From contig CANFOM010000012.1 of NCBI GenBank assembly GCA_947448725.1, positions 6,622-70,621 on the forward strand: a stretch of DNA of 64,000 bases, read 5' to 3'. Made by a program: the position numbers and the translations under genes. The notes below the pieces were generated by a model that was not told the origin of the DNA, did no database searches, and was given only the letters and a program-made list of their open reading frames with translations. Below are positions 6,044 through 20,328 of the stretch, piece after piece (within the stretch, counting starts at the first letter, position 1; every line of letters starts with the position of its first letter). Source of the DNA: Bacteroidota bacterium. GTDB lineage: Bacteria; Bacteroidota; Bacteroidia; Chitinophagales; Chitinophagaceae.

Positions 6044-8458
6044 TTACTCTATATATTTAACCACGCGGGCTAGCTTTCCATTGGCATTGGTGCCCTCTAA
6101 TACAATTTGTAATTTTTTACTTATATCATTATTGTAAAATTCAATTCTAATCCTTGGATTGCGTTTATTAGTTAACACATAAGGATTCCAATATAAGGTG
6201 GTTCTATTATCTTCTTCAAAATTTTCAGACGGCTTTTCGTAATCAGGATTAAAAAATTCTTTAAAAACAGAATAACCTCCTAAAGCAGCGTATTCCATTC
6301 CTACACTTTTGATATTTTTCCCTTTATTGTTATTGCCGCGTTTGGTATATATTGCAATGGCCCCTCCACTTCCACCACCAGCCGAACCAAAAAATGGAGG
6401 TCGAATGGCTTTGATGTAAGCAATATCAGCAATAGAAATATTTTGCACCGATTCTATAGGGGTATTAAATTCATTTACAAAGAAATCAGTTTTAGAACCT
6501 CTCCAGGTGGCAGAAGCTTGTGAACCATAAGCCATAATATTCAAACCTGGCACTTTGGATTGCAAATAGGTCAATACATTCATGGAGCCAAGCGCACTTG
6601 GATCGTTGGTTAAATCAAAGGAAGTTCCATCTCCCCCTGTAAAAAAACCAGTAGCATATTTTTCATCCAGTAACTGAATAGGCGATTTCGTTTTTGACTT
6701 TACCACTACTTCTGTTAAAGTGATAGAGGCTAATAATTTTTTTTGTCTTTCTTGTTCCAACAAAATAAAATTTAATTTAGCCCTAGCCATACTATCACTC
6801 CAATTTCGAACAAAACTACCTGCATCTATTGGTGATTTTTTAAATTCTTGTTTCAATAACCCATTTTCAAAATGCACTACGGCAATATTGTTCAATTTTG
6901 ATTTACTATTAACCCCATAATAGATTCTTGAAGTATCATAATAGAAAACAGACTTGTCTTCGAAACTTCCATCGCTTAATATGGGTATAAATAGCATTTT
7001 ATTACTACTGTCTCTGCCATTGATAATGATATTTAAAAGAAGGTCATCTGAGAATTTTATGTTTGCGTTGGCATACACTTTCCCTGAAACTTTCATAAAA
7101 TCAGTTTCTTTAGGATAAGTGGGCACTGGCAAAATACCTGCTTTAACTTTATCCCAATCAAATTTTCGCCATCCGTTGGTAAGCATTACTAAATCTAAAT
7201 GCGCCGCTACGCTATCTGCATCACTCGAAAAATAATAAGCAGGATGGTATACTTTACCGCGAATATCATTACTCAAAAGAAAATCAGAATAGATGGTTTG
7301 TTGTTCGGGCAACACAACTGAAGCGTCTGTAATGGATATAGACATATTGGATTCTGTGGTATCCTTCACCATTATTTCAAGTACATTTTTGCCTCTTTTA
7401 GCTGTATTGGCTACTTGCACGGATAACATCGCATTATACTCATGAAGGCGATTATTAATCAACACAATTCTTTCGGCTAAAGGAATCCAATCATTTGTAA
7501 ATAAAGAAAACTGTACCACACCGGTAGGTAATTCTTCAATGGGTAATCCAGCTTTCTGCAAAAGGCGTTCCTCCCCTTTAAATTCAACATTATATAGTAA
7601 GTGTTGATTTTGATGTACCAATAATCTCAAGTGCTTAAAATTTTGGGGGACTTCCGCAGTTCGTTCTACTTGAACATAAGCTTTCTCTACATCCATACTA
7701 AGCTTCATAATAACACCCTCTTTATTGGCAGCCATTATAGGAGTAATACCTTTTTGCGCATTTTCGTCTGTCCAATTAAGTTGATACTTTTCTCCAGCCA
7801 CTGGTTTTAATTTAAAAGTGCCCATGCCATCATGTGCTATTTTTAAAGTATCCAACACTTTGTTTTTATCATTAACTAAAAATCCTTTTATAAATACAGG
7901 TATCCCAAAGCCATTGGTAGCTTTAAAAGCTACTTTGCTATTTAATCCATTAACCAAAACGCCGCCTTCTGGAAAAACATCTACCCTTGTTTTGGAGGTA
8001 GTGATTGTTTTTGTTTTAGCTATCGAACCATCATTAACAGGAATATTTTTTTCGTAAATAAATATACTATCGTCATTCAACATCCAACGTGTAAAGGCTT
8101 TTAAACGAATAAAGTCGCCTTTGTAATTGGGCGGCACTTCAAAACTTCCCTTGGCAGATGATTTTAATAAAGGGGCAACTGTTTGCTTGATATAATTCCC
8201 ATTAGCATCATACCAATTAACATAAACGTTCTTGCTTAAACTAGTCCATTCTAATCCTGATAAAACATAAAGTTTATAAAAAATGGTTTCTCCTTTATTG
8301 TACATGGTCCTATCGAAATGAATATGCATTTTTTCGAGTGGCAATTGCTGTTCATATAAGTTTATAACAGAATCATATATTTGTGCCTGAGTCTTTTCTG
8401 CATAAAAAGTCATCAATAACAATACAAAACAATTCAAAAATATTTTTTTCATCTTCAC
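6044..8458 (-). CDS. Secreted 804-aa protein with a C-terminal TonB-receptor plug-like domain but no beta-barrel; function unknown
   Basis: Signal peptide (..FYAEKTQAQ). The C-terminal third (LTEVVVKSK..VLTYLQSKVPGLNI..ADIAYIKAIRPPFFGSAGGGSGGAIAIYTKRG) looks like a plug domain. The N-terminal two thirds are unrecognised (possibly MG2/Ig-like). Confidence 0.5.
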   Translation of the reverse strand: MKMKKIFLNCFVLLLMTFYAEKTQAQIYDSVINLYEQQLPLEKMHIHFDRTMYNKGETIFYKLYVLSGLEWTSLSKNVYVNWYDANGNYIKQTVAPLLKSSAKGSFEVPPNYKGDFIRLKAFTRWMLNDDSIFIYEKNIPVNDGSIAKTKTITTSKTRVDVFPEGGVLVNGLNSKVAFKATNGFGIPVFIKGFLVNDKNKVLDTLKIAHDGMGTFKLKPVAGEKYQLNWTDENAQKGITPIMAANKEGVIMKLSMDVEKAYVQVERTAEVPQNFKHLRLLVHQNQHLLYNVEFKGEERLLQKAGLPIEELPTGVVQFSLFTNDWIPLAERIVLINNRLHEYNAMLSVQVANTAKRGKNVLEIMVKDTTESNMSISITDASVVLPEQQTIYSDFLLSNDIRGKVYHPAYYFSSDADSVAAHLDLVMLTNGWRKFDWDKVKAGILPVPTYPKETDFMKVSGKVYANANIKFSDDLLLNIIINGRDSSNKMLFIPILSDGSFEDKSVFYYDTSRIYYGVNSKSKLNNIAVVHFENGLLKQEFKKSPIDAGSFVRNWSDSMARAKLNFILLEQERQKKLLASITLTEVVVKSKTKSPIQLLDEKYATGFFTGGDGTSFDLTNDPSALGSMNVLTYLQSKVPGLNIMAYGSQASATWRGSKTDFFVNEFNTPIESVQNISIADIAYIKAIRPPFFGSAGGGSGGAIAIYTKRGNNNKGKNIKSVGMEYAALGGYSVFKEFFNPDYEKPSENFEEDNRTTLYWNPYVLTNKRNPRIRIEFYNNDISKKLQIVLEGTNANGKLARVVKYIE

Positions 8459-8794
8459 TTAGTTTTTCGATCGCTTATAATTATCGACTTGCCAAAGTTA
8501 GGTATTTGTATAGGATAGCGCCTTAAATAAACAAGCAGATAGGTTGGATAAGAATTATCAAGATGAAATTAAAATATTCCACAATAAAAACCACACAAAA
8601 ACAAAGGATAAAATAAAATAGAACCGATAAAGTAAGGCCTTCCGTTAAATGTTCTAAGAAATGATTATGCGATGGAAACTAAGCATTTTCAGTGCAATAG
8701 AAATAGAATTATAATTTATATTAGATTGATTTACAAGCATTTATAATAAAGTGCAAAATAACTCCCCCTTTATAAGCTATACAATCGGATTGGC

Positions 8795-9475
8795 TTAGGC
8801 AGCTATAACAACTGCTTTTAATTCATATATATCATCAAAAATATAATTGGGATTGGCGGCTAATAATTGAATCTTAGTATGTGCCCCTGTAGTAACTGCA
8901 ATATTGTACACACAACCCGCATTCCTTCCTTCTTCTATATCTATGGTAGAATCTCCCACTTTTATAACTGATGCTGCATCTTGAATATTCATTTTCTCCA
9001 TGGCATATAATATCATGTCTGGCATGGGTCGGTTGTTATTAACATCCGATGAGGTAACTAGTAAATCAAAATTAACACCTTCAACCCAATTTAGTTTTTT
9101 AACTAGAGAAGTAGCAGTGGCTTTATTATAGCCTGTATTTAAAACCACTTTAATACCTAAGTCTCTTAATTCCTTAAATAGTCTTTCTGTATTTTGGGTA
9201 GGAACCACTGTCAAATTTTCATAAGCTGTATCAAGAAGAACCAAAAAATCCTTAAACACTTCTTGAATAGTATCCTCATTAAGAAACATATTAGTTCCCA
9301 CTAAGGTGTCTTTAATTGCTTGCAGCTTTTCCTTTCCTGCCCCCCACTTTAAAACTTCTTCAAAAGTAACGTTAGGACATTTTTTTTGTATTGCCTTATG
9401 TAAAGTATGATACACCACATTGCCTTCATCTACAGTAGTTCCAGCCATGTCAAAAACAACCATTGCTATTTTCAT
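8795..9475 (-). CDS. Phosphonatase-like HAD hydrolase (PhnX-like, TIGR03351-type)
   Basis: 226-aa ORF. HAD motif I is FDMAGTT, with Ala at nucleophile+2 as in phosphonoacetaldehyde hydrolase (FDWAGTT) rather than the DxDGT of phosphatases. Motif IV is GDSTIDIEEGRNAG. Last gene of the phosphonate cassette. Confidence 0.75.
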   Translation of the reverse strand: MKIAMVVFDMAGTTVDEGNVVYHTLHKAIQKKCPNVTFEEVLKWGAGKEKLQAIKDTLVGTNMFLNEDTIQEVFKDFLVLLDTAYENLTVVPTQNTERLFKELRDLGIKVVLNTGYNKATATSLVKKLNWVEGVNFDLLVTSSDVNNNRPMPDMILYAMEKMNIQDAASVIKVGDSTIDIEEGRNAGCVYNIAVTTGAHTKIQLLAANPNYIFDDIYELKAVVIAA

Positions 9476-9479
9476 AAAA

Positions 9480-10028
9480 TTATTTTAAAGATGATTCGAT
9501 TGCATTAGTAAATGATTCAATTGGAGGACTTACTAGATTCGGATCTTTTGCCAAGTCATCCCATCTTCTTAATGCTACCGCATCTTTGTAAAATTCATTT
9601 TTCTCAAATGCTTCTACTTCAATCTGATCCATTACACCCCCTTGAAATTCCAAACTAATTTTTGAAGGTGCCGATAAAGCTTCATGATAACCTGGCTCCG
9701 TCGCACATAAATATCTTTTGGCCTGGACATGTAATTTAACAGGTTCCACTGCACCCAATTTAAAGTGTTGAGTCAAATACTTCTCCCCTAGCAATTCATG
9801 CATATCATCAATACCATTATCACTTGCATCATCGGGTAAATCATGTAATAAATGTCCTATATCATGTAACAAAGCAGCAGTAACTAATTCATCAGTCGCA
9901 TAATGTATTCTTGCTAATTCGGCACATTGTAAAGCATGTTCTAATTGAGTAACTTCCTCGCCACCATACATGGAAGAACCATTATTTTCAAAGAGATCTA
10001 ATATTTGTTGTGTAATTGGATGTAACAT
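9480..10028 (-). CDS. phnZ: Phosphonate-degradation HD-domain diiron oxygenase (PhnZ type)
   Basis: 182-aa ORF. Ligand pattern H..HD..H..H..D in YGGEEVTQLEHALQCA, AALLHDIGH, MHELLGEKYL, LHVQAKRYL and RRWDD. This closely matches my memory of PhnZ/TIGR03276. Confidence 0.8.
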   Translation of the reverse strand: MLHPITQQILDLFENNGSSMYGGEEVTQLEHALQCAELARIHYATDELVTAALLHDIGHLLHDLPDDASDNGIDDMHELLGEKYLTQHFKLGAVEPVKLHVQAKRYLCATEPGYHEALSAPSKISLEFQGGVMDQIEVEAFEKNEFYKDAVALRRWDDLAKDPNLVSPPIESFTNAIESSLK

Positions 10029-10037
10029 AAAATTATA

Positions 10038-11165
10038 TTAAAGGTTATTAATCATTTCTTCTGCAAAACCAAATGACATGGTCATGCCATGACCCCCAAT
10101 ACCATTTAAGATATATACTCCTTTTTCAGGATTCAAAAACAAATCAGGAGCGCCATTTGTCATAATTGGATAAATCCCATTCCATGATTGTGTCATTTCC
10201 CATTCATCGATATGAATTAATTTTTTAAGATAATCTAATATCATATTATTTATCTCTATTTTATCAAAGGGCTCAAAATCTAATGCATATTCATGCGAAT
10301 CTCCAACAGTCAATTCACCAACATTATTTTGAGAAACCATAACATGTATCCCATATTTTAAATAAGTTGGAATTTCAGACTCAATTTTCATTCTTAATTT
10401 AGTAAGCGAAGAAGAAGCAGTAAAACTTTTATAATGCAGCAATGACAAGCCACCACAAATAGAAGCTCCAATTCTGTAATCTGGATCTTTATGCTTAAAA
10501 CGCATCATTTGTAGTTTTGTTTTTATTATTGGCTGTGCTTTAAAAATTTCTGGATATAAGGTTTCAAAATCAGCGCCAGAGCATACACAAATAATATCTG
10601 CTTCAAATTTTAAATTATTTGAAAATGCTACATTGCTTTTAACACTAGTGATGGCTGTACCCCAAATAAATTTAACCTTATACATTTCAGTTAAATAAGT
10701 TGGTAATTTTTTGATGCCTTCTCTTGGATCTATAATAGTCTCCTCTTCACTTCTAAGCGCCCCCAATAAACCTTCCCCATTAATCCCTTGATAATTATTC
10801 AATACCGCTTTAGCATCCATAATCGAAACTGGTCTGTTTTTGGCTTTGAAAAAGCTGCCAATCTCTTCCACAACCGTCATTTCTTCTTGAGAATAAGCTA
10901 AATGCAAACTTCCACAAGCATTGTATGGAATATGCGCTGCATCTAAATATTCTAGCCAAATTTCTTTGGTTCTAACTGCCCTATCATATAATTTACCATC
11001 TGGCTGCCCTACTGGCCAAAGCATTCCAAAATTTCTTACGCTTGCACCTAATGAAAATTGAGATTTTTCTATGACTGTAACTTCATAGCCTTTTTGGGCT
11101 AAGGCTCTTGCTGTGGCAAGTCCCAAAATACCTGCGCCAACTACTATGGCTTTTTGACTATTCAT
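10038..11165 (-). CDS. DAO-family FAD-dependent amine oxidoreductase of the phosphonate-cluster-associated clade (TIGR03364-like)
   Basis: I place the start at MNSQKAIVVGAGILGLATARALAQKGYEVTVIEK (GxGxxG directly after the Met). This ATG overlaps the upstream stop as ATGAATAG. The ORF-track start at 11210 adds 15 non-conserved residues inside the upstream gene. Confidence 0.75.
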   Translation of the reverse strand: MNSQKAIVVGAGILGLATARALAQKGYEVTVIEKSQFSLGASVRNFGMLWPVGQPDGKLYDRAVRTKEIWLEYLDAAHIPYNACGSLHLAYSQEEMTVVEEIGSFFKAKNRPVSIMDAKAVLNNYQGINGEGLLGALRSEEETIIDPREGIKKLPTYLTEMYKVKFIWGTAITSVKSNVAFSNNLKFEADIICVCSGADFETLYPEIFKAQPIIKTKLQMMRFKHKDPDYRIGASICGGLSLLHYKSFTASSSLTKLRMKIESEIPTYLKYGIHVMVSQNNVGELTVGDSHEYALDFEPFDKIEINNMILDYLKKLIHIDEWEMTQSWNGIYPIMTNGAPDLFLNPEKGVYILNGIGGHGMTMSFGFAEEMINNL

Positions 11166-12423
11166 ATGTATATTTTTTATACTTTTTATTAAAATATAAG
11201 AGTGTCGCAATACTAACTAAAGTGCCAATAATTGACAAAATTAATACACCATTACTATAAAAATTTGTCCAACTTATTGAAATTCCCATTGAGCTTTTTA
11301 AAATAATAACAAAAACGCTTGCCAAATACCCAAAGGAATCTACTAAGTACATGAAATAACCTACATTTCCTTTTATTTTAAAGGTTGCAATCATGCGATC
11401 AAATAGTATACAATTAAATGGTATATACCCCATATACAATCCAAGCCCCACTAAAACTATCCATAAATAGCCAGATATAATGTGTTGTAAAAAGAGTAAA
11501 GTGCTTATTCCGCAAATTACAAAACCTGCCAAAATGATTATTTGCGCTATTTGAAAAGCTAATTTATTATTATTGATATAAATCATACTTGCAATAAGAA
11601 TAAGTACACAAAATGCAATAGGAATTTCAGTGGCTGTAAAAATGGCTGCATTTTTACCATAGCCTAATTCTAACCAAATATCTGCAGCGAAATTGTCTCT
11701 TATATCTCTAAAAAGTGTAAGTAATATATAAATAAAAATAAATGAAATCAACCCAAAAGAAAATAGCTTAAAAAAATGTTTCCTTTCATTGCTATTCATG
11801 GGTACTCTCAAGGATTTCTCTTCCGTTTCAAAAGCAGTAGGATGTGGTATTTTTTCTAGTAAATATATCAATATAATTACGGGGACTAAAAATATAAGCC
11901 CCGTATAAAAAGGGATCCACTTTTCTTGCAGCACATATGTAAGTTGAAGCCATTTTCCAACAGTTTTAACAAACCCAGAAGAAACTATAAAACTTACAGC
12001 CATTGTCGCCCCAATAAAATCGGATGTTTTACGGCCTTCTACAAAGGAGAAAATCAAGCCCCATAATACTCCCAAGGGTAGGCCATTGAAAAATAAGAAT
12101 ACTATATTCCAAGGAGATTTAAATAATGGGAATAATAACAATGGAATAAAAGACAAAATAATTAACATCAAAATAGACCAGCCTCTTCCGACTTTGTTCA
12201 ATTCTGAGATAAATTTAATGCCATAAAATTTACTTACAGTATACCCCAATACCTGTGCAATAACCAAAATATTTTTATAATCAACCCCAGCTATTTTTGG
12301 TTCATCCATGTACAATCCAATGGTAAATGGTTTTCTAAAAGCGTACACACAAGCATAAGTTAAAAAACATATTACGGCTATATAGATAGAAATTAATATA
12401 CTATTTATCTTCTCTTTTTTCAA
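11158..12423 (-). CDS. Polytopic inner-membrane permease (MFS-like; I recall this family as DUF5690)
   Basis: 421-aa ORF that is hydrophobic throughout, with roughly 10-12 TM segments by eye. It shows translational coupling (8-nt overlap) to the FAD oxidase gene. Confidence 0.6.
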   Translation of the reverse strand: MKKEKINSILISIYIAVICFLTYACVYAFRKPFTIGLYMDEPKIAGVDYKNILVIAQVLGYTVSKFYGIKFISELNKVGRGWSILMLIILSFIPLLLFPLFKSPWNIVFLFFNGLPLGVLWGLIFSFVEGRKTSDFIGATMAVSFIVSSGFVKTVGKWLQLTYVLQEKWIPFYTGLIFLVPVIILIYLLEKIPHPTAFETEEKSLRVPMNSNERKHFFKLFSFGLISFIFIYILLTLFRDIRDNFAADIWLELGYGKNAAIFTATEIPIAFCVLILIASMIYINNNKLAFQIAQIIILAGFVICGISTLLFLQHIISGYLWIVLVGLGLYMGYIPFNCILFDRMIATFKIKGNVGYFMYLVDSFGYLASVFVIILKSSMGISISWTNFYSNGVLILSIIGTLVSIATLLYFNKKYKKYTYE

Positions 12424-12446
12424 AATATTTGCATTGTATAATAATC

Positions 12447-12480
12447 AAGAAAGAGTCCCAAATACTTGGAACTCTTTCTT
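12447..12480 (-). terminator. Hairpin in the SusD-permease gap (possible attenuator or partial terminator)
   Basis: AAGAAAGAGT (12447-12456) pairs perfectly with ACTCTTTCTT (12471-12480) across a 14-nt loop. On the coding (-) strand it is followed by UGAUUAUUAUAC, which is only moderately U-rich. Confidence 0.4.
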
Positions 12481-12528: not shown

Positions 12529-14109
12529 CTATTGAATGATCCACATTTTAGCATTAATATCATCTTTCCCACTATACTGAGAAGTAAGTGCAGAAGTTAA
12601 ATTTGCTTTATTAGTAGACAATTCTGATGATGGATATTGATAACGCAAAGGAATGATATTGCTATTTCCAGTACCAGGGCCCGCATCAAATGCAGGAACG
12701 CCTGTTCTTCTCCATTGATAATAACCTTCTAAACCAGAATTACGAGCTAGTGCTAAATAACGTTGGGTTAAAATTTGATTTAAACCTGAAGCTGTATTGT
12801 CCCCAGCATATTTAACTGCATCTTGATTGAAATAATCTGCAAAACTAAAATTAACCGTATAGTTAACATAATCCCCAGGTGCAGTTCCTTTCAAGAAAGA
12901 AACTGTATTATTGCCATCAACAATACCATAAAAAGCAAACATCGCTTTTATTCCTTTTTGGTACCAATCATTTGCCGATCCACTGATCCAACCACGATTA
13001 ATGGCTTCTGCAATATTCAAACACATCTCAGGATAGCCTACTAAAAAGGTATTTTCTCCAGTAAAGCCATCATAATAACGCTTACGACCAATTGGAGCTA
13101 TTTTAAGAGCCACAATTTTTCCACCTAATACAGACATGTCTTCGCCAGCACCACCGCCCACAAAAGATTTAAAAGACGTGTCAGCAAAACCTAAACCACG
13201 AGCAGGATCAGCTACTTTCATGGCTCTTAAATCTTTCAAACTACTCAAAGTATTTAACCAAGTTGATGCAACACACAAACGCAATGCATCATTACCATAG
13301 TTATTTTTATTATTTGGATAATAATTGTAAGATGAGTTGTAAACAAATTCCCAGTTATCAGACAATTCAGACATGATAGGATACTTAGCAGGATTTCCAA
13401 AAACGTCTGAAAATTTTTGCTTGATGTTTAAATCTGCATCATTCGATTTTTTACTCAAATTAATTAGTAGTCTTAATTTGTAGGTATTAACTACTTTTTG
13501 CCATTTCTTTAAAGCAGTCAAAGGATCAACACCCCCAGATATTTTTTCTTGGAAATAAAAATCTCCTAATAAAGCTGTATTTGAACTTGCTATCAAGGAA
13601 GCTAAATCAGTATTAGCATCTTCTAATAATTTGAAAGCTTGAATAAATACCTGTTTTTGACTATCATATTTTGGAGTAGGATTAGCCAATCCTTTCAAGG
13701 CTTCTGACATTGGTATATCCCCTACTTTTAAACTCATACCTACATAAATATAGGCTTTGAAAAATTTAGCTAATGCTCCATAAGGAGTAACTCCTGTAGA
13801 TGCTTTTGCTGCTTCTTTTTCCATTGCTGCTATATTTTCCAAAGTGTTGTAATCTAAATTCGCACTACCACTCCAATATTCATTCGTACCATAATAGGTA
13901 TAGGTAGATAGGGTATATTGCCCAAATTTATCTTCATCACCTGCCGGGAAAACCATTATGTTATTTTCGATTTGTCTCAACAACAAATAGGCTGGTACGG
14001 AAGTAGGCTGATTTGGATTTTGAGTATACTTCTCAAATGTTTTTGTACAACTACTTGCAGCTATTGCAATGACTGCAAAAAATAGCGCTATTAATTTATT
14101 TGTTTTCAT
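12529..14109 (-). CDS. SusD/RagB-family nutrient-binding outer-membrane lipoprotein
   Basis: 526-aa ORF. Lipoprotein signal (AIAASSCTK). Located 33 nt downstream of a SusC-type gene. TPR-like helical composition typical of SusD homologues. Confidence 0.8.
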   Translation of the reverse strand: MKTNKLIALFFAVIAIAASSCTKTFEKYTQNPNQPTSVPAYLLLRQIENNIMVFPAGDEDKFGQYTLSTYTYYGTNEYWSGSANLDYNTLENIAAMEKEAAKASTGVTPYGALAKFFKAYIYVGMSLKVGDIPMSEALKGLANPTPKYDSQKQVFIQAFKLLEDANTDLASLIASSNTALLGDFYFQEKISGGVDPLTALKKWQKVVNTYKLRLLINLSKKSNDADLNIKQKFSDVFGNPAKYPIMSELSDNWEFVYNSSYNYYPNNKNNYGNDALRLCVASTWLNTLSSLKDLRAMKVADPARGLGFADTSFKSFVGGGAGEDMSVLGGKIVALKIAPIGRKRYYDGFTGENTFLVGYPEMCLNIAEAINRGWISGSANDWYQKGIKAMFAFYGIVDGNNTVSFLKGTAPGDYVNYTVNFSFADYFNQDAVKYAGDNTASGLNQILTQRYLALARNSGLEGYYQWRRTGVPAFDAGPGTGNSNIIPLRYQYPSSELSTNKANLTSALTSQYSGKDDINAKMWIIQ

Positions 14110-14142: not shown

Positions 14143-17100
14143 TTAGAAAACAATGTTTAAGTTAATACCATAACTACGTGTAGTAGGCGTTTGTAAATTA
14201 TATTCCTTACTATTACCACTATTGTAATCGCGACCAGAATATTGGTCAATATCCATATCCTTAAAACGATCTGGGAAGAAATACAATAAGTTACGTCCAA
14301 CCAATGAAATATCAACTTTAGAAACAAATGATTTCTTACCAATCAATGACTGAGGCAATGAATACGTAATAACTATCTCACGTAATTTTCCATAAGTTTT
14401 CGAAACTGAAGTATGTTCAAAGTCATTAAAGAAACTACTTACATAATCTTGAATATAATTCACAACCCCTGTATTTTTAGCAAATTGTAAAGAACTTAAA
14501 TTAGTAATCACACCAGTTACGGGGTCATATTTAATTGCTTGGCCATTTGAAATTTGTACCCCCTCGCCTACATAAGTTCCTTTAAATCCTTTATCATTGT
14601 AATGCGCTGCTTCGTATGCTCTAGCTGCACCCACTGCACCTTCTGCAGTAAAAATATTAGAGCCGCCTTCAATACCTTTTCTCATTACACGGTCTTGAAC
14701 TACACCGCCCACTTTACCATCAAATTGGAAAGAGAAAGTAAAAGCTTTATAATTGAATTTATTGTAAATAGACCAGCTCCAATCTGCATCTGCATGACCT
14801 ACATATTGTGCTTTTGGCAAATACACTGGATAACCAGCGCTGTTATTAATTACTTGCCCATCAGATGTTTTCGCAGTAACACCAGAATAAATTTTATCTA
14901 CTCTATCACCTTGGTGGAATTGGTAACTTTCAAAATTGCTTGGCAATTCTTTATAGGTTTCTGTAAAAGTTGACCAGTTAAGCATCACATCCCAGTTTAA
15001 CCCTTTTGCAGATCTTAATGGAGAGCCTGTTAAAGACAATTCAGCCCCTTTTACTTGTGTTTTAATAGCATTTGTAGTAAATGCAGTTATACCTGTAGTT
15101 TGTGAAATTGGGAAATCTCTAATTCCAGGGCCATTGATATTATTAAAGAACGTTGCTGCTAAACCTAATCTATTTTTCAAAAATTTGACATCAAATCCAT
15201 ACTCTGTACTTGTTACTTGAGAAGATTTAATATTAGAGTCAATAGCATTCAAAGGAGCACTTGCGCCAGTTGAACCATTGTATACTGTGTTAATAGAATA
15301 CGCTGGATTAGATAAAGAATATGATGGTCCACCGTAAACACTTACATATGGGTTTCCGTATCCAACAGGATAACCCGCTGGGCCAATATATTGTTGAGTA
15401 TTAGGTGATTTTGCAGATGCATAACTTGCTCTCACTTTTAAGAAGCTAATAATTTCAGGCATTTTTACATAATCTGAAATAACTGATGCTCCAGAAATGG
15501 ATGGATAGAAATAGGTATTATTATTAATTAACAAAGTAGAACTCTTATCTACTCTTCCAGTAGTTGTTAAAGTGAAATACTTACCAAATTCAACTCCTGC
15601 TGAATAATAAGAACTCAATACCAACATGTCAGAATGGAAATTGTATGCTTTAACAGCATTCAATGAATTAGCAAATGAATACAATCCTGGTACGTTTAAG
15701 TAATCAGTAGTAGTAAAACTAGACTGATAAGTAAAGTTACGGGCATTCACACCACCTATCGCATCAAACACAATACCATTGGTAAACTTATGATTGTATT
15801 TTGCTAAAGCTTCTACGTTATTATCAAACAAAGAACGAACGTCTTCTCTATAATCACCGCGGTTTAATTCACGACCATAAGGGTGAGCAGAATAAGGCAT
15901 TTGCTCAGTTCTTAAAACGTTATTGGCACTTATATTGGTTCTTAAGATAGCTTCAAAATCATTGTTAGGCTTATAAGACAAAGAAATATTTCCTGTAACA
16001 TCATTTTTATAATGACCACGCAACCACTCATAACTCATAAAATAAGGATTGTGGTAACGTTGGTATTCAGCAAATTTAGACTGAACCCCTTCTTTGCCTG
16101 GTTGCCAGTAGCTTTTCATATCATCTACATTCCAATCTGCACCAGTCCAAATGGTCATAGAGTAGATAACACTATTAGGGCCATAAGAAACATCTGGCGT
16201 ATTAGGAGAAAATTGGCGATTGTAATTTAAACTACCGTCAATTTTAAATTTGCTAGATAGATTATAACTCGCATTCAAATTAAAATTAATCGTATTTAAT
16301 TTTGTATTTGGAATGATACCTTGTTGAGTGGTATTGCTTAAAGACATACGTACATTAGAACGATCGGTAACAGAAGAAAAACTTAAGTTATTAGTAGACA
16401 ATACTCCTGCTTGAATAAAACGCTCCAAATTATTTTTACCCACTGGTAAATAAGGAGTTGCTTTACGAACACCCGTAACTGGATCAATTGGACTATTCCA
16501 CTGAGGAATTAATTGGCCGTTTAAAGCTGGTCCCCAAACATCATAGTCCCCATCATTGATTCCACCACCTTTACCATCGCCAAATGCATATTGAGAATAG
16601 TCACCACCGCCATATAATGCTTGTGATTTAGGTAAAGCAATAAATCCTTTATCTACTTGTGTACTAGAATTAAATTCAATAGTATACCCTTTATCGTTTT
16701 TCTTTGCTCTTTTGGTAGTAATTAAAATAGCCCCATTTTGTGCACGGCTTCCATAAATTGCTGTTGCAGCCAACCCTTTTAGAACGGTATAAGACTCAAT
16801 ATCATCTGGACTTAGATTCCAAGTATCAGAAGTTACTGGGATACCATCAACCACATATAAAGAAATATTGTACCCACGTAAAGAAACGTTAGGCGCTGCT
16901 AACATTTCACGATTAATAGCAACATCTAAACCAGCGACTTTACCTACTAATCCATTGATTGGATTGGGTTCTCTCGCTTTCACTAAATCGGCACCCTTTA
17001 CTTCTTGCACAGAGTAACCTAATTTTTTTACATCTTTTTTAACCCCCAAACCAGTTACCACCACATCTTCTAATTTATCCACAGCAGGAATTAATTTTAC

Positions 17101-17388
17101 TAGCAATTCAGTGCCATTAATAACGACCTGTGAGGTTTGAAAGCCAACATAGGAAACCGAAATAACGACTCCTTTAGTTGCACTAATGGTAAAACTACCG
17201 TTTGAAGTCGATAAGGTGCTTTTACTGTTTTTGACAGATATAGTTGCACCTTCAATTGCATTTGATGTAGTAGCATCAATTACTTTACCACTTACATTCA
17301 AATTTTGCGCATGTACCTGAAATGCAAAGCAGATAAGTGCTAGCGGCATCATCAGGTATTTTAATAATTTGATTTTTTCTTGAATCAT
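14143..17388 (-). CDS. SusC/RagA-family TonB-linked outer-membrane transporter
   Basis: 1081-aa ORF. Signal peptide, N-terminal carboxypeptidase-regulatory-like domain (VSGKVIDATTSNAIEGATISV), plug (GLDVAINREM..RGYNSL..VVDGIP), and the terminal beta-barrel motif ending in ..NLNIVF. Confidence 0.9.
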   Translation of the reverse strand: MIQEKIKLLKYLMMPLALICFAFQVHAQNLNVSGKVIDATTSNAIEGATISVKNSKSTLSTSNGSFTISATKGVVISVSYVGFQTSQVVINGTELLVKLIPAVDKLEDVVVTGLGVKKDVKKLGYSVQEVKGADLVKAREPNPINGLVGKVAGLDVAINREMLAAPNVSLRGYNISLYVVDGIPVTSDTWNLSPDDIESYTVLKGLAATAIYGSRAQNGAILITTKRAKKNDKGYTIEFNSSTQVDKGFIALPKSQALYGGGDYSQYAFGDGKGGGINDGDYDVWGPALNGQLIPQWNSPIDPVTGVRKATPYLPVGKNNLERFIQAGVLSTNNLSFSSVTDRSNVRMSLSNTTQQGIIPNTKLNTINFNLNASYNLSSKFKIDGSLNYNRQFSPNTPDVSYGPNSVIYSMTIWTGADWNVDDMKSYWQPGKEGVQSKFAEYQRYHNPYFMSYEWLRGHYKNDVTGNISLSYKPNNDFEAILRTNISANNVLRTEQMPYSAHPYGRELNRGDYREDVRSLFDNNVEALAKYNHKFTNGIVFDAIGGVNARNFTYQSSFTTTDYLNVPGLYSFANSLNAVKAYNFHSDMLVLSSYYSAGVEFGKYFTLTTTGRVDKSSTLLINNNTYFYPSISGASVISDYVKMPEIISFLKVRASYASAKSPNTQQYIGPAGYPVGYGNPYVSVYGGPSYSLSNPAYSINTVYNGSTGASAPLNAIDSNIKSSQVTSTEYGFDVKFLKNRLGLAATFFNNINGPGIRDFPISQTTGITAFTTNAIKTQVKGAELSLTGSPLRSAKGLNWDVMLNWSTFTETYKELPSNFESYQFHQGDRVDKIYSGVTAKTSDGQVINNSAGYPVYLPKAQYVGHADADWSWSIYNKFNYKAFTFSFQFDGKVGGVVQDRVMRKGIEGGSNIFTAEGAVGAARAYEAAHYNDKGFKGTYVGEGVQISNGQAIKYDPVTGVITNLSSLQFAKNTGVVNYIQDYVSSFFNDFEHTSVSKTYGKLREIVITYSLPQSLIGKKSFVSKVDISLVGRNLLYFFPDRFKDMDIDQYSGRDYNSGNSKEYNLQTPTTRSYGINLNIVF

Positions 17389-17622: not shown

Positions 17623-20328
17623 ATGAAGATCTTATTTACATTATTCCAATTAATTTTAGTATCCAATTATTTAGTTGCTCAAAAAAGTTATAATTACTTA
17701 TCTGTTCCAGGTGACCAAGAGTATACTACCATCGATAAAAATAATCACACTGTATTGCCAAGTGGGAGATATATTAAGCCAGCAGGCTCTACTATTCAAA
17801 TTACACATGACCCTTTTGGAATGGCCGTTTCGCCAGATGGAACCAAAACAGTTACCTTGCATGATGGTGTAATTACAATTATAAACAATGATAATTTAAA
17901 AGCCGTTCGAGTTCCTAGTTATGATAAAAAAATTGACACTATTTTAAAAAAAGGGTCTTTTTTGGGAATCACTTTTGCTGGAACCAATAATGATTTAGTG
18001 TATTTAAGTGCTGGGGATGCGGGTGCAGTAATTGTTTATGATATTAAACAATATAAAAAAATAGATTCTATTTCATTAAATGGAACTATTAATGGAGAAG
18101 CATTTGATGATAGCTTTACTTCCGATATCATTTACAATGAAAAAGAAAATGAATTATTGGTTTTAGATAGAGGTAATTTTAGATTGGTAAGAATTGATCT
18201 TACAACAAAAAAAATAAAAGCATCTATTAAAACTGGACGTCAACCTTTTAATTTGGCCTTAAGTCCAAACAAGGAATTCGTTTTGGTGGCCAATGTAGGA
18301 ATGTACGATTATCCTGTGCTACCAGACCTCACCAAAGAAAATTATGATACACTATTATTGCCTTGGCACCCCTATGGCAACAATACCAAAGAATCTATTC
18401 AAGGAACAACTTACAATGGCAGATTTGTCCCTGGGGTAGGTGACCCTTTATCTCCAGATGCCATGAGTGTATTTAGCATTGACTTAAATACAAACAAAGT
18501 TATTGATAAGTTTAAAACGGGTTATCAAATTGGAGAGATGATCGAAGGCGCTGAAGTAGTGGGAGGAGCAAGTCCAAATTCGATTGCTATTGGAAATAAT
18601 TTTGCTTATGTATCCAATGCCACCAATGACAATATTTCAATCATTGACTATAAAAATCATAAAATAATAGGCAGCATTCCTATCAAATTAAATGACGCTA
18701 TAGATCATTATAGAGGATACCTCCCATTTGGCATTGCCATGGCGAAGGATGAAAAAACATTGTATGTGGCATTATTAGGCTTTAACGCAGTGGCGGTAAT
18801 TGATCTTGAAAAAAGAAAAACCATTGGATTTATTCCAAGTGGTTGGGGTACATCAAAAATAAAATTAAGTAGCGATGAAAAAGATATGTACGTTATCTCT
18901 TGTAGAGGTTATGGCGCAGGGCCTAATGGAGGAATAGGATTTAAAAAACCTGATCAAGGTACCTATATTGGAGACATTCAATTAGGTACTTTCCAAAAAA
19001 TTCAAGTACCTACATTGGAGGAATTAAAAGTCTATACAACTACAACTTTAAACAATACCTATAAAACAATAACCAAATTGGATGATATAAAAAATCCATT
19101 ACCTATCAAAGCAGGCATTCGTAAAAGCCCTATAAAATATATTGTTTACATCACTAAAGAAAATAGAACTTATGACGAAGTGTTAGGTCAATTAAAAACA
19201 GGCAGAGGTGATTCTAGTATAGCAAGGTTTGGAAATCATGTAAGAATGGGCTTTCAAAGTAAAAGTGCCGTAGGATATGATATTACTCCCAATCATGCAA
19301 AATTGGCACAAGAATTTGCTTTTTCAGATAATTTTTATTGCGACGGCGATGCCTCCATACACGGACACCACTGGATGATGGGTGTGATACCGAATGAATG
19401 GGTAGAGACTAATTCAAGTGTAAGTAAATCTGCAAAAATATTTTCAAAAGCTTCAGGTAGAAGATTCCCTGGCACTACAGGCAGTATCGATCCAGAAGAT
19501 TATGCAGAAAGAGGTGGTTTATGGGAGGCCCTTGAAAGAAAAAAAGTACCCTTTTATAATTTTGGAGAAGCCAATGAAACGGCACATAATAGAGAAGAAT
19601 GGAATGATACTGCTACAGGTGGCGCACATGCTGTAATGGTTCCTATGCAAAAAGCATTATGGAAAAATACGAGTCATAATTATGCAGGTTTTAATTGTAA
19701 TATTCCAGATCAATTTAGAATGGAGCAATTTGAATCCGAGTTTACAAAACTTTGGTTAAGCAAGCATAAGGAAATACCTCATCTAATTACCATGCAAGTG
19801 CCCAATGACCATACGGCAGATCCAAGACCTAAATTCGGATATCCCTACCATGAATCCTATGTAGCAGACAATGATTTAGCGGTAGGTAGGATTTTGCATT
19901 TCTTATCTAGAACACCTTACTGGAAAAATATGTTGGTAATTATTACCGAAGATGACCCTCAAGGTGGAGTTGATCATATAGATGCGCATAGAAGTATCTT
20001 AATGCTGGCAGGCCCTTATGTAAAGAGAAATTACACGTCTAAGACTCATGCAAATTTTGGTTCAATACTTAAAGTGATTTATAATATTTTAGATGTGCCC
20101 TATGTAAATCAGTATGATGCCACAGCAAGTTTATTGGATGATTTTTTTACAGACAAACCAAATTATAAGCCCTATAGCTTAGTTTTTCCTTCCAAAGAAA
20201 TATTCAATACAACCAATGCAATGAAACGTTATAATCGAGACATAGATTGGCGAAAAGTTGAAAAAGGGCCTGATATGGATGACGAGGATGAAATTAGAAA
20301 AGCACATTATAAAAAAGAAAAGAAATAA
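17623..20328 (+). CDS. Secreted beta-propeller (YVTN/YncE-like) fused to a PF04185-type phosphoesterase (phospholipase C / AcpA acid phosphatase family)
   Basis: 901-aa ORF with a signal peptide. The N-terminal half has lactonase/YVTN-like repeats (P.G.A.SPDG... / P..IA......YV.N). The C-terminal half has IVYITKENRTYDEVLG (compare ENRSFDHYFG) and ITEDDPQGGVDHIDAHRS. Confidence 0.75.
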   Translation: MKILFTLFQLILVSNYLVAQKSYNYLSVPGDQEYTTIDKNNHTVLPSGRYIKPAGSTIQITHDPFGMAVSPDGTKTVTLHDGVITIINNDNLKAVRVPSYDKKIDTILKKGSFLGITFAGTNNDLVYLSAGDAGAVIVYDIKQYKKIDSISLNGTINGEAFDDSFTSDIIYNEKENELLVLDRGNFRLVRIDLTTKKIKASIKTGRQPFNLALSPNKEFVLVANVGMYDYPVLPDLTKENYDTLLLPWHPYGNNTKESIQGTTYNGRFVPGVGDPLSPDAMSVFSIDLNTNKVIDKFKTGYQIGEMIEGAEVVGGASPNSIAIGNNFAYVSNATNDNISIIDYKNHKIIGSIPIKLNDAIDHYRGYLPFGIAMAKDEKTLYVALLGFNAVAVIDLEKRKTIGFIPSGWGTSKIKLSSDEKDMYVISCRGYGAGPNGGIGFKKPDQGTYIGDIQLGTFQKIQVPTLEELKVYTTTTLNNTYKTITKLDDIKNPLPIKAGIRKSPIKYIVYITKENRTYDEVLGQLKTGRGDSSIARFGNHVRMGFQSKSAVGYDITPNHAKLAQEFAFSDNFYCDGDASIHGHHWMMGVIPNEWVETNSSVSKSAKIFSKASGRRFPGTTGSIDPEDYAERGGLWEALERKKVPFYNFGEANETAHNREEWNDTATGGAHAVMVPMQKALWKNTSHNYAGFNCNIPDQFRMEQFESEFTKLWLSKHKEIPHLITMQVPNDHTADPRPKFGYPYHESYVADNDLAVGRILHFLSRTPYWKNMLVIITEDDPQGGVDHIDAHRSILMLAGPYVKRNYTSKTHANFGSILKVIYNILDVPYVNQYDATASLLDDFFTDKPNYKPYSLVFPSKEIFNTTNAMKRYNRDIDWRKVEKGPDMDDEDEIRKAHYKKEKK

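What the first reader, a model, noticed from the sequence alone, without database searches (positions are those of the whole stretch)
8795..11165. Phosphonate cassette lacks the known entry enzymes (no PhnY*, no PhnW): non-canonical pathway logic
The cassette combines parts of two known routes but lacks the first step of each. A PhnZ is present without an adjacent PhnY*-type 2OG dioxygenase to make its 1-hydroxy substrate. A PhnX-like hydrolase is present without the PhnW transaminase. The only possible entry enzyme is the FAD oxidase.

Two readings are possible:
- (a) The oxidase replaces PhnW (AEP or N-alkyl-AEP to phosphonoacetaldehyde to Pi), while PhnZ handles pre-hydroxylated phosphonates taken from the environment.
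- (b) The substrate is 1-hydroxy-2-AEP. It could be oxidised to a hydroxy-phosphonoacetaldehyde that the PhnX-like enzyme hydrolyses, which would make two parallel outlets for one substrate.

Which phosphonate this gene set consumes is not deducible from sequence.
Basis: partly seen in the sequence, partly recalled or inferred. Interest (0 to 1): 0.6.

Follow-up and report, generated by a model that had tools for sequence, protein, structure and literature searches.

The report
Known PbfD–PhnZ–PhnX phosphonate-breakdown cassette
Three adjacent genes let a freshwater Chitinophagaceae bacterium free phosphate from aminoethylphosphonate-type compounds without the usual first enzymes, but this enzyme combination was published in 2023, so this is an ordinary new example.

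Summary
Window 8795-11165 (minus strand) encodes a TIGR03364 FAD amine oxidase (PbfD type), a TIGR03276 PhnZ-like HD di-iron oxygenase and a TIGR03351 PhnX-like hydrolase. They are packed with gaps of 9 and 4 nt, behind SusC, SusD and a DUF5690 permease.

The 94.8%-complete genome has no PhnW, TauD-type dioxygenase, PhnA, canonical PhnX, PhnJ, PbfA or PEP mutase. Its two generic PhyH-family genes do not track the cassette across the genus. A 100%-complete relative with the cassette has neither PhyH nor TauD.

The "non-canonical logic" is already published:
- Zangelmi 2023 showed that PbfD oxidases convert AEP and N-methyl-AEP to phosphonoacetaldehyde and replace PhnW. That paper lists phnW-less pbfD-phnX-phnZ clusters.
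- Stand-alone phnZ, never found with pbfA, was reported in 2021.
- The same puzzle was discussed for Achromobacter in 2024.

- The module recurs in 49 of 68 Bacteroidota loci, with shuffled gene order.
- The PhnX-like clade keeps the Schiff-base Lys (K50) but has Ala in place of His56.
- PhnZ-like keeps all di-iron ligands and the Tyr/Glu pair.
- DUF5690 is an MFS transporter.

The PhnZ-like and PhnX-like clades appear unassayed in the library searched. This scan has reported the same cluster type on other genomes before.

The parts
8795..9475 (-). PhnX-like HAD hydrolase (TIGR03351 clade), inferred phosphonoacetaldehyde hydrolase. No signal peptide.
   Evidence: TIGR03351 220.1 bits. Best sequence and fold matches in the PDB are B. 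cereus PhnX. AF2 model pLDDT 95.7. D9, A11-G12-T13, G47, K50, R149, G174, D175 and D179 are invariant in 60 clade members. Ala53 replaces His56 in 59 of 60.
9480..10028 (-). PhnZ-like HD-domain mixed-valent di-iron oxygenase (TIGR03276 clade), inferred C-P cleavage of an imported 1-hydroxy-2-amino phosphonate. No signal peptide.
   Evidence: TIGR03276 217.4 bits. phmmer to TmpB 6NPA gave 1e-30 and to PhnZ 4MLM 6e-29. H31, H55, D56, H77, H100, D157 (metal ligands), H59, Y21 and E24 are conserved in at least 56 of 57 clade members.
10038..11165 (-). PbfD-type FAD-dependent amine oxidase (TIGR03364), inferred AEP / N-methyl-AEP to phosphonoacetaldehyde. Its start overlaps the DUF5690 stop by 8 nt.
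   Evidence: TIGR03364 387.8 bits against a cut-off of 285.1, plus Pfam DAO. ATG at residue 16 of the listed ORF matches the relatives' starts. PbfD is defined as the TIGR03364 group in PMC10590968.
11158..12423 (-). DUF5690 polytopic inner-membrane protein, candidate (amino)phosphonate permease of the MFS fold.
   Evidence: PF18943 E 5e-149. About 12 hydrophobic helices. AF2 model pLDDT 90.6. Best PDB folds are G6PT1/SLC37A4, sialin and DgoT. Adjacent to PbfD in 65 of 68 loci.
12529..14109 (-). SusD-like outer-membrane lipoprotein.
   Evidence: PF12771 4e-48. Lipoprotein-type N-terminus. Present in 48 of 68 loci.
14143..17388 (-). SusC/RagA TonB-dependent outer-membrane transporter.
   Evidence: TIGR04056 400.5 bits. 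Present in 49 of 68 loci.
17623..20328 (+). Exported beta-propeller plus phosphoesterase-family (PLC / acid-phosphatase type) protein, transcribed divergently. A possible extracytoplasmic head-group-releasing enzyme.
   Evidence: PF04185 and YVTN-propeller repeats. Signal peptide. Homologue in 6 of 7 relatives' loci and in 22 of 68 Bacteroidota loci.

Best explanation
The three genes are the cytoplasmic end of a phosphorus-scavenging locus for natural aminophosphonates.

Uptake (inferred). SusC/SusD bring substrate across the outer membrane. The DUF5690 MFS permease brings it across the inner membrane.

Branch 1.
- The PbfD-type FAD oxidase converts 2-aminoethylphosphonate and/or N-methyl-AEP, with O2, to phosphonoacetaldehyde plus ammonia or methylamine and H2O2. 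This is inferred from family membership; relatives have been assayed.
- The PhnX-like hydrolase cleaves phosphonoacetaldehyde to acetaldehyde and phosphate, through a Schiff base on Lys50 and phosphoryl transfer to Asp9. This is inferred from conserved residues and from the neighbouring genes.

Branch 2.
- The PhnZ-like di-iron oxygenase cleaves a pre-formed (R)-1-hydroxy-2-aminoethylphosphonate-type compound taken from the environment, giving glycine and phosphate. This is inferred.
- It therefore needs no PhnY*-type hydroxylase.

No PhnW is needed either, because PbfD replaces it.

This is the published 'PbfD + PhnX (+ PhnZ)' variant of AEP degradation.
For: Family assignments are all above curated cut-offs.

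Published biochemistry and surveys:
- PbfD enzymes are the TIGR03364 group. M. fucicola PbfD2 oxidises AEP (kcat/KM 3400) and N-methyl-AEP (13500 M-1 s-1) to phosphonoacetaldehyde, shown by NMR, in a cluster with phnX and a phnZ homologue and no phnW. Table S1 lists 11 phnW-less pbfD-phnX-phnZ clusters (PMC10590968).
- phnZ homologues without phnY* occur in hydrolytic clusters and never together with pbfA (PMC8154272).

Entry and other C-P enzymes not found:
- Own genome: no PhnW, TauD, PhnA, PhnX, PhnJ, PbfA or PEP mutase.
- The two PhyH genes do not co-vary with the cassette in 24 genus members. They occur in 4 of 10 and 3 of 10 cassette-bearing genomes, against 4 of 14 and 4 of 14 without the cassette.
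- G019 (100% complete) carries the cassette and has no PhyH, TauD or PhnW.

Conservation. 49 of 68 Bacteroidota loci hold PbfD, PhnX-like and PhnZ-like together. Gene order is shuffled but content is kept.

Evidence that PhnX-like takes phosphonoacetaldehyde:
- It sits beside PbfD (58 loci), PbfA (6 loci, NF049939 742 bits) and a TIGR03366 ADH related by Pfam family to PbfG (4 loci, just below the model's cut-off). Assayed relatives of all three make phosphonoacetaldehyde (PMC13576164).
- It is interchangeable with canonical phnX next to PbfD in Asticcacaulis.
- Its catalytic Asp, DxAGT, GxxK, Arg and Mg ligands are invariant.
- PhnX is its best structural match.

PhnZ-like. All six metal ligands plus the Tyr24 and Glu27 equivalents are conserved. 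PbfA and PhnZ-like are mutually exclusive in these loci, 0 of 6.

Localisation. None of the three enzymes has a signal peptide.
Against: - No member of this Bacteroidota PbfD branch has been assayed. It is about 29-31% identical to the proteobacterial PbfD homologues I could compare. I could not obtain the assayed M. fucicola sequence.
- The PhnX-like clade lacks His56 (Ala in 59 of 60), lacks Cys22 and, in this subgroup, lacks Met49. These residues line the Schiff-base site of B. cereus PhnX, so its rate or substrate may differ. I found no assay of a TIGR03351 protein in the library.
- I found no assay of a TIGR03276 PhnZ-like clade member either. Its scores to the three characterised PhnZ-type models are well below their cut-offs (170 and 163 bits against 300).
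- The genome is 94.8% complete, so absence is 'not found'.
- Three Chitinophagaceae loci keep PbfD and PhnZ-like but carry an AP-superfamily gene in place of PhnX-like. The simple scheme does not explain this.
Confidence: 0.75

Rival explanations
1. Reading (b), the original TIGRFAM hypothesis. The oxidase deaminates 1-hydroxy-2-AEP to 1-hydroxy-phosphonoacetaldehyde, and the PhnX-like enzyme (not a true PhnX) hydrolyses that to glycolaldehyde and phosphate. PhnZ would then be a parallel outlet for the same substrate.
For: - The PhnX-like clade differs systematically from PhnX in the cap: His56 to Ala in 59 of 60, and no Cys22.
- It scores only 111 bits to the PhnX model.
- I found no assay of the clade.
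Against: - Assayed PbfD enzymes were screened on a phosphonate panel for which HAEP and N-alkylated HAEP derivatives were synthesised. Activity is reported only for AEP, N-methyl, N-ethyl and (PbfD1) N,N-dimethyl AEP. The product is plain phosphonoacetaldehyde (PMC10590968).
- PbfA (assayed product phosphonoacetaldehyde) and a TIGR03366 ADH of the PbfG kind also sit beside this PhnX-like clade.
- Canonical phnX replaces it next to PbfD in Asticcacaulis.
- Two enzymes for one substrate in a tight operon is redundant.
- The presumed 1-hydroxy-phosphonoacetaldehyde was reported to break down slowly without an enzyme (PMC8154272).
Confidence: 0.07
2. The PhnZ-like enzyme acts on a different alpha-hydroxyphosphonate than R-HAEP. 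Candidates are N-methylated HAEP, hydroxymethylphosphonate, or a hydroxylated head group released from phosphonoglycans or phosphonolipids. The cassette's second branch would then serve another natural product.
For: - It belongs to a clade distinct from the three characterised enzymes: 170 and 163 bits to the GmPhnZ1 and TmpB models, cut-offs 300.
- Known PhnZ-type enzymes differ in substrate, and GmPhnZ cleaves both HMP and R-HAEP (PMC10574752).
- Uptake through SusCD would suit substrates larger or more varied than free AEP.
Against: - The Tyr and Glu aligned with Tyr24 and Glu27 of PhnZ, which I recall as the residues that recognise the 2-amino group, are conserved in at least 56 of 57 clade members. 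TmpB also has them, so they do not settle the degree of N-methylation.
- Mutual exclusion with PbfA, which is specific for R-HAEP, points to R-HAEP (PMC8154272).
Confidence: 0.15
3. A cryptic PhnY*-like hydroxylase elsewhere in the genome, one of the two PhyH-family proteins, makes R-HAEP from AEP. The organism would then run the classical PhnY*/PhnZ route alongside the hydrolytic one.
For: - There are two PhyH-family ORFs: G000 C3:85877-86488, and window 32710-33543.
- The first has weak similarity to the Gimesia methylphosphonate hydroxylase model (47.7 bits).
Against: - Both score far below the cut-off of 500.
- Their neighbours are a Xaa-Pro dipeptidase-like amidohydrolase and a sulfatase.
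- Their presence in the genus is independent of the cassette.
- G019 has the cassette with no PhyH or TauD gene, and G017 lacks both homologues.
- None of 68 related loci carries such a gene among its recurrent neighbours.
Confidence: 0.03

Closest known systems
pbfD2-phnX-phnZ cluster of Mariniblastus fucicola and the other phnW-less pbfD-phnX-phnZ clusters (Zangelmi et al. 2023, iScience, PMC10590968, Fig. S1 and Table S1)
   Same: - Same three enzyme families.
- No phnW and no phnY*.
- A TIGR03364 oxidase is the source of phosphonoacetaldehyde.
- The phnZ homologue is presumed to deal with environmental R-HAEP.
   Different: - The host here is a Chitinophagaceae bacterium.
- The hydrolase is the short TIGR03351 type with Ala at the His56 position. 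The paper does not distinguish this type, and I could not tell which type M. fucicola has.
- Uptake is by SusCD plus a DUF5690 MFS permease, not ABC or other transporters.
- This PbfD branch has not been assayed.
Classical oxidative PhnY*/PhnZ pathway (McSorley 2012; PhnZ structure 4MLM/4MLN)
   Same: - HD-domain di-iron oxygenase with all metal ligands and the Tyr24/Glu27 pair.
- Expected chemistry: oxidative C-P cleavage of a 1-hydroxy phosphonate.
   Different: - No 2-oxoglutarate dioxygenase partner in the locus, the genome or complete relatives.
- The protein belongs to the TIGR03276 clade, for which I found no assay, and not to the characterised PhnZ, TmpB or GmPhnZ1 groups.
Canonical hydrolytic PhnW/PhnX pathway (B. 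cereus and Salmonella phosphonatase)
   Same: - Phosphonoacetaldehyde as the central intermediate (inferred).
- HAD fold.
- Asp nucleophile in DxAGT, cap Lys in a G-x-x-K motif, motif-III Arg and Mg-binding Asp residues.
   Different: - No transaminase; an O2-dependent flavin oxidase replaces it.
- The hydrolase is about 40 residues shorter and lacks His56 and Cys22.
Achromobacter hpnW-phnX operon with the neighbouring PhnHD gene (Epiktetov et al. 2024, PMC11203657)
   Same: - TIGR03364 oxidase in place of PhnW.
- TIGR03276 HD protein alongside.
- The authors explicitly raise the same puzzle about what the two proteins do.
   Different: - The Achromobacter hydrolase keeps His56 (canonical type) and was purified and shown to hydrolyse phosphonoacetaldehyde.
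- It is under LysR regulation.
- phnW is present elsewhere in those genomes.
Low-phosphate-induced PusCD (SusCD-like) loci of Flavobacterium with phnX and dao genes (Lidbury et al., bioRxiv 10.1101/719427)
   Same: A SusC/SusD pair is co-located with a phosphonatase gene, an FAD oxidoreductase gene and exported phosphoesterases. PhoR/PhoB genes flank the cassette in 11 and 10 of the 68 loci examined here.
   Different: - That work did not resolve the enzyme logic or the substrate.
- Expression or phosphate control of the present locus was not tested here.

Membership tests
PbfD (TIGR03364 FAD-dependent amine oxidases of phosphonate clusters) | Scores above the TIGR03364 cut-off, with a PF01266 DAO domain and an N-terminal GxGxxG FAD motif | tested here: met
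   387.8 bits against 285.1. DAO 1.6e-41. The protein starts MNSQKAIVVGAGILG.
PbfD (TIGR03364 FAD-dependent amine oxidases of phosphonate clusters) | Encoded next to a phosphonoacetaldehyde-consuming enzyme (phnX or phnY/phnA) | tested here: met
   PhnX-like lies two genes downstream in the same tight array. The pairing is seen in 58 of 68 related loci.
PbfD (TIGR03364 FAD-dependent amine oxidases of phosphonate clusters) | Oxidises N-methyl-AEP and/or AEP to phosphonoacetaldehyde with O2 | not testable with these tools
   Shown only for A. baumannii PbfD1 and M. fucicola PbfD2 (PMC10590968). The window protein is 29-31% identical to the proteobacterial homologues available here.
PhnZ-type HD mixed-valent di-iron oxygenases (TIGR03276 clade) | H...HD...H...H...D metal ligand set | tested here: met
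   H31, H55, D56, H77, H100 and D157 align to PhnZ H34, H58, D59, H80, H104 and D161. They are conserved in at least 95% of 57 clade members.
PhnZ-type HD mixed-valent di-iron oxygenases (TIGR03276 clade) | Substrate-loop Tyr24 and Glu27, and His62 | tested here: met
   Y21 in 57 of 57, E24 in 56 of 57, H59 in 57 of 57.
PhnZ-type HD mixed-valent di-iron oxygenases (TIGR03276 clade) | Cleaves (R)-1-hydroxy-2-aminoethylphosphonate to glycine and phosphate | not testable with these tools
   I found no assayed member of the TIGR03276 clade.
Classical PhnY*/PhnZ two-enzyme pathway | A 2-oxoglutarate/Fe(II) dioxygenase (PhyH or TauD superfamily) partner that makes the 1-hydroxy substrate | tested here: not met
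   None in the locus or in 68 related loci. No TauD in the genome. The two PhyH genes are unrelated in context and distribution. G019 has the cassette with no PhyH or TauD.
Canonical PhnX (TIGR01422 phosphonoacetaldehyde hydrolase) | Scores above the TIGR01422 cut-off | tested here: not met
   111.1 bits against 220. It passes TIGR03351 instead.
Canonical PhnX (TIGR01422 phosphonoacetaldehyde hydrolase) | Asp12 nucleophile in DxAGT, Schiff-base Lys53 three residues after Gly50, Arg160, Asp186 and Asp190 | tested here: met
   D9, A11-G12-T13, G47, K50, R149, D175 and D179 are invariant in 60 clade members. The pairwise phmmer alignment had put K48 at this position. The family alignment corrects it to K50.
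Canonical PhnX (TIGR01422 phosphonoacetaldehyde hydrolase) | His56 and Cys22 (or Ser22) lining the Schiff-base site | tested here: not met
   The His56 position is Ala in 59 of 60. The Cys22 position is Asn, Gly or Asp.
Canonical PhnW/PhnX pathway | AEP:pyruvate transaminase PhnW | tested here: not met
   TIGR02326 best 36 bits against 401 in the own genome. No hit at E<=1e-10 in five relatives that carry the cassette. tblastn with a PhnW found nothing in 87 loci.

The most novel reading that the evidence does not exclude
The cassette may be the cytoplasmic end of a SusCD-based 'phosphonate utilisation locus' that harvests bound phosphonates, such as phosphonolipid or phosphonoglycan head groups freed by the exported propeller-phosphoesterase.

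In that reading the two unassayed clades would have specificities of their own:
- The His56-less PhnX-like hydrolase would accept more than plain phosphonoacetaldehyde.
- The PhnZ-like oxygenase would take hydroxylated or N-methylated head groups.
Probability: 0.2. Interest if true: 0.45.

Novelty: new member of a known kind. Interest (0 to 1): 0.2.

Why it matters
Phosphonates are a sizeable organic phosphorus pool, and knowing who can use which ones matters for freshwater and soil phosphorus cycling.

This locus shows that the published PhnW-free PbfD route, with a stand-alone PhnZ-type oxygenase, is widespread in Chitinophagales, Sphingobacteriales and Cytophagales. In those groups it is wired to SusCD uptake and a DUF5690 permease.

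It does not open a new mechanism. Its use is as a pointer to three protein clades for which I found no assay, all with clear predicted roles:
- TIGR03351 hydrolase
- TIGR03276 oxygenase
- DUF5690 transporter

Several cultured relatives could be used to test them.

Tried and rejected
- **DUF5690 against PDB sequences.** phmmer found nothing meaningful. The fold search was needed to show the MFS fold.
- **Promoter and terminator scan of 5900-17700.** Counts were no higher than in shuffled sequence: 66 against 59 promoter-like sites, 8 against 6.4 terminator-like sites. The one strong hairpin is at 12447-12480. I make no operon-boundary claim from the scan.
- **The 804-aa gene downstream (6044-8458).** It has no homologue next to the cassette in seven relatives' loci, so I left it out.
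- **An assayed PbfD for direct comparison.** The genome-contig scan returned only Bacteroidota among its best 80 loci. The M. fucicola and A. baumannii sequences were therefore not in hand. Proteobacterial and cyanobacterial plasmid homologues were used instead.
- **Pairwise alignment to B. cereus PhnX.** It suggested that K48 is the Schiff-base lysine and that His56 is replaced by Lys. I rejected this in favour of the 60-sequence alignment: K50 is invariant and Ala occupies the His56 position.
- **The two PhyH genes as hidden PhnY*.** Rejected on score, context and distribution.
- **A non-phosphonate reading (amino-alcohol phosphate esters).** Rejected for two reasons. The hydrolase carries the DxAGT, cap-Lys and Arg signature I recall as specific to phosphonatase. 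Assayed PbfD enzymes did not oxidise the non-phosphonate analogues tested, on a panel that included phosphoethanolamine.
Full report
**What is there**

On the minus strand the window carries a tight array:

| Gene | Coordinates |
|---|---|
| SusC | 17388..14143 |
| SusD-like | 14109..12529 |
| DUF5690 | 12423..11158 |
| FAD oxidoreductase | 11165..10038 |
| HD-domain protein | 10028..9480 |
| HAD hydrolase | 9475..8795 |

- The oxidoreductase start overlaps the DUF5690 stop by 8 nt. The next two gaps are 9 and 4 nt.
- The listed 390-aa oxidoreductase ORF begins at an upstream TTG. Relatives align from the ATG at 11165, giving 375 aa.
- Curated models place the three enzymes as follows:
  - TIGR03364: 387.8 bits, cut-off 285.1.
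  - TIGR03276 'phosphonate degradation HD-domain oxygenase': 217.4 bits, cut-off 214.6.
  - TIGR03351 'phosphonatase-like hydrolase': 220.1 bits, cut-off 218.9, and only 111 bits to true PhnX.
- None of the three has a signal peptide. SusD has a lipoprotein-type N-terminus. The divergent 901-aa propeller plus phosphoesterase protein (17623..20328) has a signal peptide.

**Are the entry enzymes really missing?**

The window lies on contig C12 of a 2.32-Mb, 38-contig genome rated 94.8% complete. Whole-genome searches gave these results:
- No PhnW: best 36 bits against a cut-off of 401. tblastn with an Acinetobacter PhnW gave at best 21% identity.
- No TauD-family protein.
- No phosphonoacetate hydrolase, no canonical PhnX other than the cassette gene, and no C-P lyase PhnJ.
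- No PbfA: best 226 bits against 525.
- No PEP mutase, so the cell does not appear to make phosphonates itself.

Two PhyH-family ORFs exist, at C3:85877-86488 and window 32710-33543.
- The first scores best to ectoine hydroxylase (68 bits). It scores 47.7 bits, against a cut-off of 500, to the Gimesia methylphosphonate hydroxylase.
- The second matches no NCBIfam model.
- Their neighbours are a Xaa-Pro dipeptidase-like amidohydrolase and a sulfatase.

Across 24 genomes of the same genus, ten carry the oxidase gene, two of them only as fragments.
- Homologues of the two PhyH genes occur in 4 of 10 and 3 of 10 of those genomes.
- They occur in 4 of 14 and 4 of 14 of the rest. There is no association.
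- G019 (100% complete) has PhnZ-like, PhnX-like, DUF5690, PbfD, SusCD and the propeller protein. It has no PhyH, no TauD and no PhnW.

**Is the grouping conserved?**

- Seven loci from relatives show the same gene content with shuffled order. An example is SusC-SusD-PhnZ-PhnX-DUF5690-PbfD-propeller in G017.
- A scan of species-representative genomes with a PbfD alignment returned at least 594 loci. The best 80 are all labelled Bacteroidota apart from three MAG records carrying proteobacterial names. They include Chitinophagaceae such as Sediminibacterium, Ferruginibacter and Puia, plus Mucilaginibacter, Daejeonella, Dyadobacter and Pseudarcicella. This places the window's organism among freshwater or soil Chitinophagaceae.
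- I clustered the ORFs of the 68 loci of at least 10 kb and annotated cluster representatives. The table gives the number of loci holding each neighbour:

| Neighbour of PbfD | Loci (of 68) |
|---|---|
| DUF5690 | 65 |
| PhnX-like | 58 |
| PhnZ-like | 55 |
| PhnX-like and PhnZ-like together | 49 |
| SusC / SusD | 49 / 48 |
| Uncharacterised 364-aa alkaline-phosphatase-superfamily protein | 28 |
| Propeller-phosphoesterase | 22 |
| HTH-cupin regulator | 15 |
| PhoR / PhoB-like pair | 11 / 10 |
| Phospholipase C | 7 |
| PbfA (742 bits against 525) | 6 |
| TIGR03366 zinc alcohol dehydrogenase | 4 |

- No aminotransferase of the PhnW type occurs in any of 87 loci.
- No 2-oxoglutarate dioxygenase is among the recurrent neighbours.
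- PbfA and PhnZ-like never share a locus (0 of 6). These six are five Dyadobacter loci and one Sphingobacteriales locus, so they are not independent.

**What the literature already says**

- *Zangelmi et al. 2023 (PMC10590968).*
  - They defined PbfB, PbfC and PbfD. PbfD is the TIGR03364 group.
  - They proved by coupled assays and NMR that PbfD1 and PbfD2 oxidise N-methyl-AEP, and also AEP, to phosphonoacetaldehyde with O2.
  - PbfD2 of Mariniblastus fucicola has kcat/KM of 13500 M-1 s-1 on N-methyl-AEP and 3400 on AEP. It 'surrogates' PhnW, which that genome lacks.
  - Their Fig. S1 and Table S1 show phnZ homologues in that cluster and in ten further phnW-less pbfD-phnX clusters. They suggest that PhnZ degrades R-HAEP by a route alternative to PbfA.
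  - They name 'PbfD2 + PhnX' as a third version of the hydrolytic pathway.
- *Zangelmi et al. 2021 (PMC8154272).*
  - They counted phnZ homologues without phnY* in 15 phnWX and 24 phnWAY clusters, never together with pbfA.
  - Canonical PhnW/PhnX cannot process R-HAEP properly. The presumed 1-hydroxy-phosphonoacetaldehyde is not a PhnX substrate.
- *Epiktetov et al. 2024 (PMC11203657).* They describe the same oxidase/HD/phosphonatase set in Achromobacter and call the roles of the oxidase and the HD protein a conundrum.
- *A 2026 paper (PMC13576164).* Zinc alcohol dehydrogenases found in such clusters (PbfG) oxidise 2-hydroxyethylphosphonate to phosphonoacetaldehyde.
- *Lidbury et al. (bioRxiv 10.1101/719427).* They reported low-phosphate-induced SusCD-like 'PusCD' loci of Flavobacterium co-located with phnX and an oxidoreductase.
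- *A Maribacter proteome study (PMC11345257).* It detected a SusCD pair with an FAD oxidoreductase and a 'phosphonatase-like hydrolase' next to it.

**Residue-level checks**

*PhnZ-like*
- It aligns to TmpB (6NPA, 1e-30) and PhnZ (4MLM, 6e-29).
- The six metal ligands (H31, H55, D56, H77, H100, D157), H59, and the Tyr24 and Glu27 equivalents (Y21, E24) are conserved in at least 56 of 57 clade members.
- I recall Tyr24 and Glu27 as the residues that respond to the substrate's amino group.
- This fits a 1-hydroxy-2-amino phosphonate. TmpB has the same pair, so the degree of N-methylation stays open.

*PhnX-like*
- The best PDB matches by sequence and by fold are B. cereus PhnX. The AF2 model has pLDDT 95.7, and Foldseek gives E 5e-17 with TM 0.76-0.84.
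- In a 60-member alignment, D9, A11-G12-T13, G47, K50, R149, G174, D175 and D179 are invariant.
- The G47-x-x-K50 spacing equals G50-x-x-K53 of PhnX, so K50 is the Schiff-base lysine. The pairwise alignment had pointed to K48.
- The His56 position is Ala in 59 of 60. Cys22 is not kept. In this subgroup Met49 is Ala.

*DUF5690*
- It has about 12 hydrophobic helices.
- The AF2 model (pLDDT 90.6) matches MFS transporters. Glucose-6-phosphate/phosphate antiporters, sialin and DgoT rank first.
- This suggests an organic-anion or organophosphate-type permease.

**How it most likely works**

- *Shown for relatives, inferred here.* PbfD converts AEP and/or N-methyl-AEP to phosphonoacetaldehyde.
- *Inferred.* The PhnX-like enzyme hydrolyses phosphonoacetaldehyde. 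The main arguments are these:
  - Three producer types sit beside this clade: PbfD, PbfA, and a TIGR03366 alcohol dehydrogenase that shares PbfG's Pfam family and scores just below its model's cut-off. Assayed relatives of each make the same aldehyde.
  - Canonical phnX takes its place next to PbfD and an HD gene in Asticcacaulis.
  - In Gloeocapsa a HAD-like hydrolase sits next to TIGR03364 and an AEP ABC importer.
- *Inferred.* The PhnZ-like enzyme cleaves imported R-HAEP-type compounds, so no hydroxylase is needed.
- *Inferred.* SusCD and DUF5690 provide uptake, and the exported propeller-phosphoesterase may free head groups outside the cell.

**Rivals**

The rivals are set out in the rival-explanations section with their odds:
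- the 1-hydroxy-phosphonoacetaldehyde route;
- a hidden PhnY*;
- another alpha-hydroxyphosphonate as the PhnZ substrate.

**Verdict**

- This is a new member of a known kind, in a phylum where the module turns out to be common.
- What remains open is biochemical: I found no assay of the TIGR03351 hydrolase clade, the TIGR03276 oxygenase clade or DUF5690 in the library searched.
- The scan has reported the same cluster type on other genomes with the same conclusion.

Noticed in passing
window 11158-12423 (-): DUF5690 is an MFS-fold permease. Its best PDB folds are G6PT1/SLC37A4, sialin and DgoT. It sits next to PbfD in 65 of 68 Bacteroidota loci. The only paper in the library that mentions DUF5690 has nothing to do with phosphonates, so it is a good candidate for the aminophosphonate importer of Bacteroidota.
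   Followed up: partly
L033:12131-13228 (-), L049:5640-6734 (+) and 27 other loci: An uncharacterised 364-aa alkaline-phosphatase-superfamily protein (weak PF01663 match) recurs in 28 of 68 PbfD loci, usually between SusD and PhnZ-like. In L033, L071 and L081 it is present while PhnX-like is absent. It is not present in the window.
   Followed up: partly
L076, L078, L084, L087, L092, L110: The six loci that carry PbfA (R-HAEP ammonia-lyase, 742 bits) all lack PhnZ-like. 55 of the other 62 loci have it. This mirrors the published mutual exclusion and supports the view that the two enzymes serve the same substrate.
   Followed up: yes
L039:7186-8235 (+); L042, L045, L047, L048: Some close relatives insert a TIGR03366 zinc alcohol dehydrogenase next to the DUF5690 gene (between SusD and DUF5690 in four of the five listed loci). 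It shares the Pfam family of the PbfG hydroxyethylphosphonate dehydrogenase and scores 282-296 bits against a cut-off of 328. It may add 2-hydroxyethylphosphonate as a feedstock.
   Followed up: partly
L066, L067, L072, L075, L083, L090, L094, L095, L103 and others: PhoR-like and PhoB-like two-component genes flank the cassette in 11 and 10 of 68 loci. This points to phosphate-starvation control. No such pair lies next to the cassette in the window.
   Followed up: no
window 12447-12480 (-): A 15-bp-stem hairpin lies in the 105-nt gap between SusD and DUF5690. It is the only strong terminator-like hit in the array. The overall terminator count is not above the shuffled expectation.
   Followed up: no
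window 6044-8458 (-): The 804-aa exported protein downstream of the cassette matched no family above a curated cut-off in Pfam or NCBIfam (only a sub-threshold MG2 hit). It is not found next to the cassette in seven relatives' loci, so it is probably an unrelated neighbour.
   Followed up: partly
window 32710-33543 (-) and 31288-32703 (-): A PhyH-family dioxygenase with no NCBIfam match lies directly upstream of a sulfatase. The pair is unrelated to the phosphonate cassette by distribution.
   Followed up: partly
L128 (Burkholderia sp. FXe9 plasmid CP101281.1, 954688-955821): A TIGR03364-annotated oxidase lies next to an amino-acid-type ABC transporter and histidine-utilisation genes, with no phosphonate gene nearby. 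Not every TIGR03364 member need act on phosphonates.
   Followed up: no
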